From positions 650,188-714,187 of the forward strand of contig JAWABJ010000001.1 of NCBI GenBank assembly GCA_038884755.1: DNA of 64,000 bases, in the 5' to 3' direction. This DNA is from Candidatus Norongarragalinales archaeon (GTDB taxonomy: Archaea > Micrarchaeota > Micrarchaeia > Norongarragalinales > Norongarragalinaceae). The notes under the pieces were generated by a model. That model searched no databases. It was not told the DNA's origin and saw only the letters and a list, made by a program, of their open reading frames with translations. Position 1 is the first letter of the stretch. Each line of letters opens with the position of its first letter. Shown in pieces: positions 31,275-36,764 of the stretch. The translations under genes and the position numbers were made by a program.

Positions 31275-31321
31275 AAAACAGATTTTTCTTTACTTGATTT
31301 TTCTTTCGTAAAGAAAAATCA
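31275..31321 (-). other. 47-nt BHB intron in 23S (~E. coli 2360 region)
   Basis: Helix AACA/TGTT with AAT and TTA bulges. Confidence 0.8.
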
Positions 31322-31749
31322 TTTGTTAAGATCACAGTCAATCCAGCATTTGTCTTTGACCCTCTACAACGCATTTCTAACGCGTCTGAGCTGAATATTG
31401 GGCGCCTTTGTTATCTTTTCGAAGGCGTGCCGCCCCAGCCAAACCACCCACCTGCAGCTGTCTTTCTTTCGAAATGAGCAATGCAGTCGAAAAATAGCAG
31501 TGTCACACTTTCGCCTATCGCACTCCCGGAAGAGTGCGCTTGACGGCTCCTGCTTACGCTTTGATTCTCCAACCGAATTACAACAACAGGCTGTGGTTAA
31601 GCTCCACGGGGTCTTCGTTTCCCTTTAGGATTCCTCGGCATGTTCACCGAGAAGTAGGTTCACCAGGTCCAAGGTAGGGACAGCAAGACAGTCGTTACGC
31701 CATTCATGCAAGCCGCCAATTAAGCGGCGAGGTACTACGCTACCTTAAG

Positions 31750-32474
31750 CAACTTTTCGTATGCATTTTGCACTGAAAAGCTGGACTATATCTTCACCGT
31801 CTTAGGGTGTTCGGCGTATAGTCTCTGAGGATCCTGTCTTTGCGTCCAACTCTTGCATTATTTCATCCAAAGTGCTCTTGCGTTGTTTTCCTTCCAAATT
31901 CATTCGGAAGGCCAAGCGCACGAGTTTTTTGAACGAGTCAAGGTCGGAATGCTCTTTTCTTTCTAACGCTTCAACAATTTCCTTGAACAGAAGAAAGTCT
32001 TTCTCTTTCGAGACAAGCGGATACTTGTCGAAAAAAGGAATTACTTTCTCCGCCAACTGCCTTCGGTTGTCTACAACGAACTGCATTAATTCCGGTTGAC
32101 CGTGTTTTTCCACGACCCTTCCGCAAGAAAGCCTGCTTCGGAATAAATCCAAAACCGCTTGTCCTTGCTTGTGTTGGGTTACGTGAAAAACCGGGTCTAA
32201 AACCAACCCGAATTTTGCAGTGTCTTCTTGTTTTAAAGACACGTTGAAACAACCTTCAGCGTCGGCGAATCCGCTCAAGAAAAAATCGGCGTTTCTTCCT
32301 TTCGTGAGTTTACTCAACCCAGCCATAGGCAACCACCTTTTTGGTTCTTTTAAAATTACAGTTTCCTGCTGATAGCATTCAACGTTTCAAGCTCTTTTCC
32401 TTACTCAGGGTCTTGAAACTCCCGCGTTCCAGCATACAGCCGAATTTAGCGACTCCCTTTAACTTGATTGCTCA
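31750..32474 (-). mobile_element. Group I intron at 23S position 1923 carrying a LAGLIDADG ORF
   Basis: P1 exon GACTCT pairs with GGAGTC (U.G at splice site); core elements TGCTGGAA, ATCAGCAGG, TCAGAGACTA, AAGATATAGTCC; terminal G before CTTAAGGTAG. Confidence 0.92.
31802..32332 (-). CDS. Single-motif LAGLIDADG homing endonuclease
   Basis: FLSGFADAEGCFNVS...F.VTQ...VIPFFDKYPL; C-terminal SSETIR overlaps the intron core. Confidence 0.92.
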   Translation of the reverse strand: MPMAGLSKLTKGRNADFFLSGFADAEGCFNVSLKQEDTAKFGLVLDPVFHVTQHKQGQAVLDLFRSRLSCGRVVEKHGQPELMQFVVDNRRQLAEKVIPFFDKYPLVSKEKDFLLFKEIVEALERKEHSDLDSFKKLVRLAFRMNLEGKQRKSTLDEIMQELDAKTGSSETIRRTP

Positions 32475-32766
32475 AGAGTCAGAGTTACTCCCGCTCTTTG
32501 CCAGTCCTTTGCTCCCTTGAAAAGGAGTTTGAGATACTGGTAGTGAGCAGGCGTCAACCATCGTACTCAACCTTTCGGTTTTGCGATGATTTGTGTTTTT
32601 GATAAACAGTCGCTGTCTCCTTGCCACTGCGACCTACAAACCCCCAATCGACAAAGTCTATGGAAGAATGTAGGCAGCCCTTCTTCCGAAGTTACGGGCC
32701 TAGATTGCCGAATTCCCTTACCATGGTTCTCCTGCCACGCCTTGGCTTGCTCTGCCAGGACCACCT

Positions 32767-32830
32767 TTCAGTAAAAAATTTCTTTGGGTTTTCTTTACTG
32801 AATTTTTCTTTTCCCAAAAGAAAAATTCTT
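32767..32830 (-). other. 64-nt BHB intron in 23S (~E. coli 1617)
   Basis: Helix CAGT/ACTG with 3-nt bulges; removal restores GAACCAGTAC|AGGTGG. Confidence 0.85.
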
Positions 32831-35039: not shown

Positions 35040-35255
35040 CATGTAGTTCCACATGTCGCCATGCGGCATGGACTATATCATCATCTCAATTTCTTGAGCG
35101 TCTGCGTGTAGTCTCTGAGGGGTCAATCATTTTCATGACGACTTCCCTGCTGATAGACCCCACCTGAACCGTTGCCGGTTCAGGATACACGGGTTGTTCC
35201 AGCATACAGCAGATTTTGTCTGCATCCTCGCGGATGCAGGTCGCAACATAAGTTT
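35040..35255 (-). mobile_element. 216-nt ORF-less group I intron at 16S position 1506
   Basis: P1 GTCGT/GCGAC; TGCTGGAA, ATCAGCAGG, TCAGAGACTAC, GATATAGTCC; terminal G before AACAAGG. Confidence 0.92.
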
Positions 35256-35824
35256 ACGACTTAACCCTCCTCATGAAGATCTAGCTCGAATGCGACCGAA
35301 GTCGCAGCCTCACTAAAACCTCACTTGGATGGCTTGACGGGCGGTGTGTGCAAGGAGCGGGGACATATTCACCGCGCGATGATGACACGCGATTACTAGG
35401 GATTCCAACTTCATGGGGGCGAGTTTCAGCCCCCAATCTGTACTGGAGTAGGGTTTAGGTGATTGCCTCCGCCTTTCGGCGTCGGAACACATTGTCCCTA
35501 CTATTGTATGCCACGTGTGGCCCAGCAGATTCAGGCCATACGGACCTAGCGTCGCCTTCTCCTTCCTCCCACTTAACGCGGGCAGTCTCCACAGAGTGCC
35601 CTCCGAATTGCTTCGAAGGTAGCAACTGTGGACGAAGATCTCGCTCGTTGCACGACTTAACGTGACACCTCACGGCACGAGCTGGCGCTGGCCATGCAAC
35701 ACTTCTCGGCTTGTTGGCTAAGATCTTTAGTCTGAGCTTCATACTGCCGTCTCTGCTGGTGAGTTTCCCGGCGTTGAGTCCAATTGAACCGCAGCATCCA
35801 CCCCTTGTGGTGCTCCCCCGCCAA

Positions 35825-36483
35825 TTCAGGGGAATAACGCAATCATGTTGGAAAGTCTCTCAAACTTTTCTGGATGAAAAGAATGAATTAACGAGTGAAA
35901 TTTTTTCAAATTCTCTCGTCTTGTTATCCTGAACTGCCAAGCTTCACTCGTAAAAGTCAAGTTTGTTGGCCGGAATTCTTCGCTTAAGAAAAAATTTCTT
36001 AAGAATTCCAGAGGTTCTCTTCCTTTCTGGTCGAATGAAACACACGTTTGGGTTGAATGCTCAGGATCTAAAGGCACTCCGCCTTCAGCATCGAAAAAAC
36101 CGCCGGCATAACACCACAATTCTCGCGGTGTTGCATTGCGAACCGATTCGGGCGTGTTCCAAAATTCCTGCGGACAAACGTATCCAGAAAGAGAAACTAA
36201 CTCTGAAATTGTTTTCTTGCCGTTCAACCTCAAGAGATTATTTCGAAGCCTGCATGAGACTCCGAAATTCCTTTCGATTATTTCGGCAAGTTTTTCCAGC
36301 CAAGCCTCGGACTTTTGATAAATCCGCAATTCGTAATTTTTGGAATCGCGGACTTCGAAGCTGGCGTCACGGAATGCTCCCAAAAGATAGCACAATTCAG
36401 CGTTCATCATTGGCTCGCACTGAAGCGCGCTTTAAATGTTTTTTGAGAGTAGCTTTCCAGTGTTATTTGATTGCGCTATTCCT
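35825..36483 (-). mobile_element. 659-nt BHB intron at 16S position 919 with LAGLIDADG ORF
   Basis: 15-bp terminal stem GGAATAGCGCAATCA/TGATTGCGTTATTCC, helix AAGG/CCTG; removal restores AAACTTAAAGGAA|TTGGCGG. Confidence 0.9.
35826..36410 (-). CDS. Double-motif LAGLIDADG homing endonuclease
   Basis: CYLLGAFRDAS and YAGGFFDAEG; stop codon lies in the 3' splice motif. Confidence 0.88.
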   Translation of the reverse strand: MMNAELCYLLGAFRDASFEVRDSKNYELRIYQKSEAWLEKLAEIIERNFGVSCRLRNNLLRLNGKKTISELVSLSGYVCPQEFWNTPESVRNATPRELWCYAGGFFDAEGGVPLDPEHSTQTCVSFDQKGREPLEFLRNFFLSEEFRPTNLTFTSEAWQFRITRRENLKKFHSLIHSFHPEKFERLSNMIALFP

Positions 36484-36713
36484 TTCCTTTAAGTTTCAAT
36501 CTTGCGATCGTACTCCCCAAGCGGCAGACTAAACGTTTTCACTACGGCACTGCAGCAACGCGAAGTCGCTGCAACGCCAAGTCTGCATCATTTACTGCAC
36601 AGGACTACTCGGGTATCTAATCCGATTCGCTACCCTGGCCTTCGTTCCTCACCGTCAGACGTGTTTTGTCCAAGCGCTTTCGCCACCGATGGTCCTCTAA
36701 GGATTACAGGATT

Positions 36714-36764
36714 GTAAGCACAGTTTTTCTTTACTCAATTTTTCTTTCGTAAAGAAAAATTGTT
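36714..36764 (-). other. 51-nt BHB intron in the 16S 690 loop (~E. coli 694)
   Basis: Helix GAGT/GCTT with 3-nt bulges; removal restores GGAGTAA|AATCCTG. Confidence 0.82.

What the first reader, a model, noticed from the sequence alone, without database searches (positions are those of the whole stretch)
31275..36764. Near-identical mini-introns at unrelated sites in 23S (31275-31321) and 16S (36714-36764)
The cores GATTTTTCTTTACGAAAGAAAAATCAAGTAAAGAAAAATC and AATTTTTCTTTACGAAAGAAAAATTGAGTAAAGAAAAACT match at 35 of 40 positions by eye. Their 4-nt splice helices differ and fit each host site (AACA/TGTT vs GAGT/GCTT). The 23S intron at 32767 is a third close relative. This suggests recent movement of an ORF-less intron or its cargo between different rRNA genes, with no homing endonuclease of its own (inference).
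Basis: partly seen in the sequence, partly recalled or inferred. Interest (0 to 1): 0.72.

Follow-up and report, generated by a model that had tools for sequence, protein, structure and literature searches.

The report
Triplex-type repeat forms rRNA mini-introns
The two look-alike mini-introns in this small archaeon's 16S and 23S rRNA genes are each built from one copy of a short dispersed repeat (a hairpin plus a mirror-image purine tract, predicted to form a triple helix) that also fills many of its tRNA introns, which likely points to a source of new archaeal introns.

Summary
In detail: 47-nt (23S) and 51-nt (16S) insertions, cores 35/40 identical, each with its own 4-bp splice helix. They are not a private pair. 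The core is one of 37 copies of a three-arm repeat in this genome (shuffles give 0-1): a pyrimidine arm, a purine arm and a mirrored purine arm, the order of an intrastrand triplex. Twenty copies sit in tRNA introns, 3 in rRNA introns, 1 in RNase P RNA, 8 beside tRNAs and 5 elsewhere. The pattern occurs in 41 of 61 genomes of the order and at 11 of 34 short-insertion rRNA sites in relatives. The closest congener has the 23S intron (46/47) but lacks the 16S one, so the 16S copy is probably a recent gain. A direct 23S-to-16S jump stays possible (closest of 78 pairs when flanks are included), but a tRNA-intron copy matches the 16S core as well (36/40). Misassembly and low complexity are rejected. 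Splicing by EndA/RtcB, triplex folding and the route of spread are inferred. No Y1 transposase or reverse transcriptase was found. This scan had already noted the repeat in at least 16 genomes; my literature searches did not find it described.

The parts
31275..31321 (-). 47-nt BHB-type mini-intron in 23S rRNA (about E. coli 2360); its body is one three-arm repeat copy (core 31281-31320)
   Evidence: central helix AACA/TGTT, 13-bp intron-side helix; present in 3 of 37 genomes (G002 46/47 identical; G007 a different 139-nt version)
36714..36764 (-). 51-nt BHB-type mini-intron in 16S rRNA after E. coli 694 (alternative register 36712-36762, after 696); core 36722-36761
   Evidence: site filled in 7 of 36 genomes, empty in G002; bridged with no difference by a contig of run X1
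32767..32830 (-). 64-nt BHB-type intron in 23S rRNA after about E. coli 1617; same repeat subfamily plus an extra 3' hairpin
   Evidence: CAGT/ACTG; filled in 4 of 28 genomes; G002 has the same 3' stub with a different repeat subfamily
29897..29943 (-). 47-nt BHB-type insertion in 23S rRNA (about E. coli 2754); degenerate member of the repeat, judged by eye
   Evidence: AGGC/GCCT; skipped exactly by contigs of X2, X3 and X8
34698..34739 (-). Repeat copy just behind tRNA-Ala in the rRNA spacer (not an intron)
20531..20561 (-). Repeat copy inside the RNase P RNA gene, in a loop that varies in length among congeners
6047..6085 (-). Repeat copy in a tRNA-Pro T-arm intron
6691..6729 (+). Repeat copy in a tRNA-Arg(TCT) anticodon-loop intron
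14303..14347 (-). Repeat copy in the tRNA-Glu intron; 12-nt perfect mirror arms
51467..51500 (+). Intergenic copy of the same subfamily as the two rRNA introns
30801..34487 (-). 23S rRNA gene as matched by Rfam (it continues to about 29700 past a large intron); host of three mini-introns
35208..37412 (-). 16S rRNA gene as matched by Rfam (3' end near 34995, past a group I intron); host of one mini-intron
34747..34818 (-). tRNA-Ala(TGC) between 16S and 23S

Best explanation
Both insertions are short introns of the archaeal bulge-helix-bulge type, likely removed by the tRNA splicing endonuclease and RtcB, and each consists of one copy of a dispersed three-arm repeat (predicted triplex) plus a few host-specific bases. 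Shown: the repeat is a pyrimidine arm (TTTCTTT core), a short loop, a complementary purine arm, a spacer of mostly 8 nt, and a mirrored purine arm. It usually starts within about 13 nt of the 5' splice site and has one orientation inside RNA genes. It comes and goes at the same sites among close relatives, often as a different subfamily. Inferred: copies arrive at the DNA level in loops of stable-RNA genes, either as new insertions or by replacing the body of a minimal intron. They persist only where the 3' tail pairs with four exon bases, so that the relaxed-specificity endonuclease can remove them. In these two minimal introns the first arm is predicted to pair with the third arm in the RNA, which closes the intron and supplies its intron-side helix. 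That shared constraint may explain part of their likeness. The mirror symmetry most likely reflects a DNA triplex. No dedicated mobiliser was found; host recombination or template switching at these structure-prone repeats is my working guess.
For: Census: 37 hits vs 0-1 in 10 shuffles. By eye: 20 in tRNA introns, 3 in rRNA introns, 1 in RNase P, 6 in tRNA 3' flanks, 2 in tRNA 5' flanks, 5 other intergenic. All 24 copies inside RNA genes read pyrimidine-purine-purine on the transcript strand. Mirror: mirror longer than direct repeat in 19 of 36, equal in 14, shorter in 3; outer A-runs correlate, rho 0.74, p 2e-7; spacer 8 nt in 23 of 36. In 121 loci from other prokaryotes the counts are 57/58/6 (the search pattern fixed the core). 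Hairpin covariation: 18 of 19 subfamily rows keep both outer stem pairs through base changes (two rows are the same G002 locus). BHB: 4/4 central helix for all four rRNA insertions; own exon/intron ends pair in 4 of 4, swapped in 1 of 12. A three-unit-sized EndA (388 aa, E 2e-125 to 4FZ2) and RtcB are present. Relatives: pattern in 41 of 61 genomes, control pattern 0-6 per genome. 21 of 101 short rRNA insertions in 27 genomes carry it, at 11 of 34 sites; 21 of 88 in repeat-positive genomes vs 0 of 13 in repeat-negative ones. Same site, different subfamily: 16S-694, 23S-1617 and several tRNAs in congeners. Arm1:arm3 pairing probability is about 1.0 in both introns.
Against: Splicing is not shown: RNA contigs that skip these stretches come from relatives with several differences per few hundred bases, and insertion-free DNA alleles exist. 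Triplex folding is untested, and in these two copies the third arm is a longer direct repeat (9) than mirror (7). Most short rRNA insertions (80 of 101) lack the motif, and the reverse-complement and reversed controls score 4 and 6 of 101. Ten of 24 tRNA introns reach only 3 of 4 central pairs, and for 4-5 of them the script's best register is not the usual position. The BHB fold costs 1.2, 3.2 and 8.5 kcal/mol over the free fold for 23S-2360, 16S-694 and 23S-1617. The exon-side helix is not adjacent in the two focal introns. No mobilising gene was identified.
Confidence: 0.68

Rival explanations
1. Direct recent transfer: the 16S intron was copied from the 23S-2360 intron of the same operon (intron transposition as proposed for Thermoproteales tRNA introns, or gene conversion in cis) and then gained a new 3' tail.
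For: Closest pair of 78 among 13 subfamily copies when 4-nt flanks are included (edit distance 6). Both have the same 3-nt hairpin loop. The 23S copy is shared with G002 while the 16S copy is not, which fits that direction. The bases that enclose the 16S core resemble the 23S central helix. They lie 5.4 kb apart in one rRNA operon.
Against: On the core alone, a tRNA-Ala intron copy is 36/40 and an intergenic copy ties. The two copies differ by two compensatory pairs, and the 16S stem variant is shared with the intergenic copy. The pair was picked for looking alike. A non-repeat intron at the same 16S site in another family (G052) starts with similar bases. The shared loop bases extend the arm1:arm3 stem, so convergence is possible.
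Confidence: 0.18
2. Old introns with a functional module: the intron sites are ancient remnants (for example of endonuclease-bearing introns), lost repeatedly, and the repeat is kept next to exon ends because it has a job in stable-RNA processing or local DNA structure.
For: Strict orientation and spacing next to splice sites and tRNA ends; conserved mirror geometry implies selection; some sites keep the same stub across genomes.
Against: No ORF-bearing intron was seen at 16S-694, 23S-2360 or 23S-1617 in the 28-37 genomes scored. The repeat was not found in 20 of 61 related genomes (many are incomplete). Subfamilies differ at the same site between congeners, and most short introns do without it.
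Confidence: 0.1
3. REP-like element moved by a Y1 (HUH) transposase, or a retro-element moved by a reverse transcriptase encoded in the host.
For: Short, dispersed, palindromic, non-coding and patchy among relatives.
Against: No PF01797 match in this genome or its genus. It occurs in 7 of 41 repeat-positive vs 9 of 20 repeat-negative genomes. No PF00078 match in this 93%-complete genome.
Confidence: 0.03
4. Artefact: low complexity or misassembly.
For: The cores are A/T-rich runs.
Against: 37 vs 0-1 hits in shuffles. Run X1 contigs span the 16S and 23S-1617 introns with no differences (X1 may be the source sample). The 23S-2360 intron recurs in G002 and in an ungapped X2 contig.
Confidence: 0.01

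Closest known systems
Small hairpin-forming (HP) BHB introns of Thermoproteales 16S rRNA (Jay & Inskeep 2015, PMC4496867; passages read)
   Same: ORF-less introns of about 50 nt in rRNA loops with a BHB-type junction.
   Different: Position 694 is not among their 13 loci. They found introns at different loci too unlike to compare, whereas here introns at unrelated sites and in different genes share one repeat body. Their proposed spread is co-conversion 7-8 nt from an endonuclease intron; the nearest such intron here is about 220 nt away.
tRNA intron transposition in Thermoproteales (Fujishima et al. 2010; not read, known from passages of PMC4090602, and section 2.5 of bioRxiv 10.64898/2026.10.13.758758)
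   Same: Very similar ORF-less BHB introns in unrelated host genes of one genome; mechanism unknown.
   Different: Here the shared body also lies outside introns (13 of 37 copies), spans tRNA, rRNA and RNase P genes, and has a defined three-arm mirror architecture.
Class II intrastrand triplex repeats, TM-ECO / PIT of E. coli (Holder et al. 2015, PMC4666352; abstract, passages, sections 16 and 18 read)
   Same: Same order of arms (pyrimidine stem, loop, purine stem, loop, purine stem); dispersed; copy number differs sharply among close relatives; no linked mobile element found.
   Different: TM-ECO is G/C-rich, has a 3-nt second loop, is always intergenic and shows no strand bias. This repeat is A/T-rich, has a 6-12-nt second loop, sits mostly inside or beside stable-RNA genes and is oriented. 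Triplex folding was shown in vitro for TM-ECO, not here.
Disrupted tRNAs and epsilon2 endonuclease of Ca. Micrarchaeum acidiphilum ARMAN-2 (PMC3239211; passages read)
   Same: Three-unit-sized EndA (best PDB match 4FZ2, E 2e-125; that 4FZ2 is the ARMAN-2 enzyme is recalled), many non-canonical introns, relaxed BHB motifs.
   Different: The passages I saw concern tRNA introns and do not mention a shared repeat body or rRNA mini-introns.

Membership tests
Archaeal BHB intron | Discrete insertion that is absent at the same site in relatives | tested here: met
   16S site empty in 29 of 36 genomes, 23S-2360 empty in 34 of 37; exact 47/51/64-nt skips in contigs
Archaeal BHB intron | 4-bp exon-intron central helix flanked by 3-nt bulges | tested here: met
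   AACA/TGTT and GAGT/GCTT; own ends pair 4 of 4, swapped 1 of 12
Archaeal BHB intron | Both outer helices (strict hBHBh') | tested here: inconclusive
   intron-side helix 13 and 3 bp, no adjacent exon-side pair; fits the relaxed HBh' class only
Archaeal BHB intron | Host encodes EndA and RtcB | tested here: met
Archaeal BHB intron | Excised from precursor RNA, exons ligated | not testable with these tools
   no RNA run holds this organism; skips in relatives' RNA could be insertion-free alleles
Thermoproteales-type HP rRNA intron | ORF-less hairpin of about 50 nt or less | tested here: met
   47 and 51 nt; fold z-scores -6.6 and -4.2 with flanks
Thermoproteales-type HP rRNA intron | At one of the 13 catalogued 16S loci, or a few bases from a homing-endonuclease intron | tested here: not met
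   E. coli 694/696 vs the loci; nearest LAGLIDADG intron near E. coli 915
Class II intrastrand triplex motif | Pyrimidine-purine-purine order with Watson-Crick hairpin | tested here: met
Class II intrastrand triplex motif | Third arm mirrors the second | tested here: met
   for the family; the two focal copies have only a 7-nt mirror
Class II intrastrand triplex motif | Triplex actually forms | not testable with these tools
   needs CD, NMR or footprinting
TM-ECO / PIT repeat proper | G/C-rich consensus, 3-nt second loop, intergenic, no strand bias | tested here: not met
REP / IS200-IS605-type element | Co-occurring Y1 transposase | tested here: not met
   none in the genus; 7 of 41 vs 9 of 20
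REP / IS200-IS605-type element | Conserved tetranucleotide foot or cleavage motif | not tested
   5' flanks vary by eye; no systematic test

The most novel reading that the evidence does not exclude
The three-arm repeat is a non-autonomous, intron-making mobile unit: it inserts at exposed loops of tRNA, rRNA and perhaps RNase P genes, closes itself by switching from its arm1:arm2 hairpin to an arm1:arm3 stem, and borrows EndA and RtcB for removal. It would be a concrete route of de novo BHB intron birth in small archaea, including in the single rRNA operon, with the 16S-694 copy caught soon after arrival.
Probability: 0.25. Interest if true: 0.85.

Novelty: new variant of a known kind. Interest (0 to 1): 0.58.

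Why it matters
How archaeal BHB introns arrive at new sites is stated as open (bioRxiv 10.64898/2026.10.13.758758, abstract and section 2.5; PMC4090602 passage). Here a defined 40-nt repeat forms whole introns in rRNA, exists outside introns, and is present or absent among very close relatives. That makes intron birth and turnover testable: 80-nt precursors can be assayed with the organism's own EndA, and alleles can be tracked in populations. It also links a triplex-type repeat, known from bacteria mainly as an intergenic feature without assigned function, to RNA splicing.

Tried and rejected
Low complexity and misassembly: rejected. A private 16S/23S pair: rejected by the genome census. Y1 transposase: none in the genus and no positive association. 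Reverse transcriptase PF00078: not found in G000, 93% complete. Rfam: no family on the cores at gathering score. Viral vector: the subfamily pattern has 0 hits in viral contigs; the broad pattern gave 94 loci, not examined. The narrow pattern of the two focal copies had 0 hits in metagenome contigs (near records may be left out). RNA evidence: four RNA runs laid; X22 held next to nothing, and X15 and X17 are relatives, so their skips do not show splicing. X1 gave no listed contig over the 23S-2360 site; a hole proves nothing. Numbering by global alignment to E. coli was unreliable around large introns, so I used local anchors for 16S-694 and 23S-2360. Rows dropped before counts: false anchor hits (16S: G011, G041; 23S-1617: G006, G015, G026, G027); G007, G011 and G036 carry insertions a few bases upstream of 1617 and were counted as empty there. 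The occupancy panel is the 30 best loci of each of two searches plus 20 fetched regions, not all 60 relatives. Literature: searches gave no paper on this repeat or on repeat-built rRNA introns in DPANN archaea. The library lacks most subscription papers, and I did not look at supplements (the ITxF tables of PMC4666352 may list such motifs).
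Full report
Setting. The window (G000:C1:650188-714187) holds an archaeal rRNA operon on the minus strand: 16S, tRNA-Ala, 23S. The genome is 0.93 Mb. Its splicing endonuclease is a 388-aa protein whose best solved relative is 4FZ2 (E 2e-125). I recall 4FZ2 as the ARMAN-2 epsilon2 enzyme, and earlier scan notes call the organism Micrarchaeota; I did not test the taxonomy otherwise. RtcB is present. The operon also has a group I intron and three LAGLIDADG introns.

Observation. The cores match at 35 of 40. Insertion-free relatives fix the lengths at 47 and 51 nt, and contigs of other runs skip exactly these stretches. 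Own exon and intron ends pair in 4 of 4 rRNA insertions and swapped ends in 1 of 12. The sites map to about E. coli 23S 2360 and 16S 694; a second register at 696 gives the same product. The third intron is 64 nt (32767-32830, about 1617). A fourth short insertion lies at 29897-29943. Misassembly is rejected: X1 contigs span the 16S and 1617 introns without differences (X1 may be the source sample), and the 2360 intron recurs in G002 (46/47) and in an ungapped X2 contig.

The core is a genome-wide repeat. A three-arm pattern has 37 hits, against 0-1 in each of 10 shuffles. Reading the contexts, 20 are in tRNA introns, 3 in rRNA introns, 1 in RNase P RNA, 6 just behind tRNAs, 2 just before tRNAs and 5 in other intergenic places. 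All 24 inside RNA genes read pyrimidine-purine-purine on the transcript strand. The flanking copies turn their hairpin end toward the tRNA. In 22 of 24 tRNA introns, chosen because they carry the motif or its hairpin, the pyrimidine arm starts within 13 nt of the 5' boundary. About 11 other tRNA introns seen by eye lack it. The two focal copies belong to a subfamily with 13 members in this genome.

Architecture. Arms 1 and 2 form a hairpin kept by compensatory change: 18 of 19 rows keep both outer pairs (one locus is counted twice). Arm 3 mirrors arm 2. The mirror is longer than the direct repeat in 19 of 36 copies, equal in 14 and shorter in 3; outer A-runs correlate (rho 0.74, p 2e-7); the spacer is 8 nt in 23 of 36. 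Inner A-runs are equal in 23 of 36 (permutation p below 1e-4), although their rank correlation is nil because this subfamily is offset. In 121 loci from other bacteria and archaea the split is 57/58/6; that scan estimates about 4000 matching stretches in the collection. This is the arm order of class II intrastrand triplex motifs such as TM-ECO (PMC4666352, sections 16 and 18), but A/T-rich, with a longer second loop, and oriented. Folding as a triplex is inferred only. The two focal copies are among the three exceptions in which arm 3 is a longer direct repeat. In RNA, their arm 1 is predicted to pair with arm 3 (probability about 1.0, 6-7 kcal/mol better than the hairpin), which gives the intron-side helix. 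The 1617 intron keeps arm1:arm2 in the free fold, and its BHB fold costs 8.5 kcal/mol.

Relatives. The pattern is in 41 of 61 genomes of the order; the reversed control scores 0-6 per genome. In rRNA loci of 27 relatives, 21 of 101 short insertions carry the relaxed motif (shuffles 0, reverse complement 4, reversed 6), at 11 of 34 sites; 21 of 88 in repeat-positive and 0 of 13 in repeat-negative genomes (kin are not independent). The 16S-694 site is filled in 7 of 36 genomes from five families: by other repeat subfamilies in four relatives and by non-repeat hairpins in two. It is empty in the closest congener. The 2360 site is filled in 3 of 37, the 1617 site in 4 of 28; there G002 keeps the same 3' stub with different cargo. 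No ORF-bearing intron was seen at these three sites. Congeners also show different subfamilies at the same tRNA positions.

Did one intron come from the other? With 4-nt flanks they are the closest of 78 pairs (edit distance 6, next 7). On the core alone they tie with an intergenic copy, three other pairs are closer, and a tRNA-Ala intron copy matches the 16S core at 36/40. They differ by two compensatory pairs. The pair was selected for likeness, and its shared loop bases lengthen the arm1:arm3 stem. A direct jump is therefore possible but not shown (about 0.18).

Mechanism. Shown: repeat body, host-specific splice helices, rapid turnover, presence of EndA and RtcB. Inferred: removal by EndA/RtcB (relaxed motifs are cut by the ARMAN-2 enzyme, PMC3239211 passages), DNA-level arrival with selection for a cleavable junction, and a DNA triplex as the reason for the mirror. 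Template switching as the source of the perfect stems is my recollection of a known mutational process, not a test. No Y1 transposase or reverse transcriptase supports an autonomous route. RNA runs did not hold this organism.

Known and new. Short hairpin rRNA introns (PMC4496867, passages), similar introns in different tRNAs (via PMC4090602 passages, and bioRxiv 10.64898/2026.10.13.758758 abstract and section 2.5) and triplex repeats (PMC4666352) are each known. PMC6125680 I saw only as a search listing. Their combination was not found in searches; supplements were not read. I reached this reading. Afterwards, searches showed that this scan had noted the same repeat in at least 16 genomes, mainly in tRNA introns; those are unchecked notes and not support. 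Verdict: real, a new variant of a known kind, interest 0.58.

Noticed in passing
window 20521-20564 (-): A repeat copy sits in a loop of the RNase P RNA. One register gives a 4-bp helix (TCCT/AGGA, 44 nt) without outer helices; congeners have shorter or different sequence there. Either an unspliced extension or an intron in RNase P RNA.
   Followed up: partly
window 29897-29943 (-): Fourth short 23S insertion (47 nt, AGGC/GCCT helix, BHB fold equals the free fold), absent from contigs of three other runs.
   Followed up: partly
G000:C1 about 181900, 300830, 657000; C2 about 66600: A second, G-rich repeat in T-loop tRNA introns (purine arm, hairpin partner, further pyrimidine tract) that looks like another triplex-order motif.
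   Followed up: no
23S loci of G007, G019, G023, G026, G027, G039, G051, G055 (L061-L078): Insertions of 100-181 nt at one 23S site share an internal conserved two-part motif across families.
   Followed up: no
L061 (G027:C63:4300-13500): A relative with more than 20 short insertions in its rRNA genes, at least seven of them repeat-bearing.
   Followed up: partly
window 30039-30974, 31802-32332, 35826-36410 (-): Three LAGLIDADG ORFs in larger rRNA introns; a group I intron at 35049-35265; a 202-nt ORF-less 23S insertion at 30957-31158.
   Followed up: partly
G000:C1:173600-173680: A repeat copy abuts a short tRNA-5'-like fragment, in the same arrangement as the copy before tRNA-Val.
   Followed up: no
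L082-L202: The broad pattern occurs in Bacillota, Proteobacteria, CPR, Bacteroidota, ANME-1 and several DPANN groups; the spacer looks mostly 6 nt in bacteria and 8 nt in archaea, and some copies sit beside or inside tRNA genes.
   Followed up: partly
window 27355-29689: A methyltransferase-like ORF, a 160-aa ORF and a 319-aa ORF lie just past the 23S 3' end (judged by eye, not scanned).
   Followed up: no
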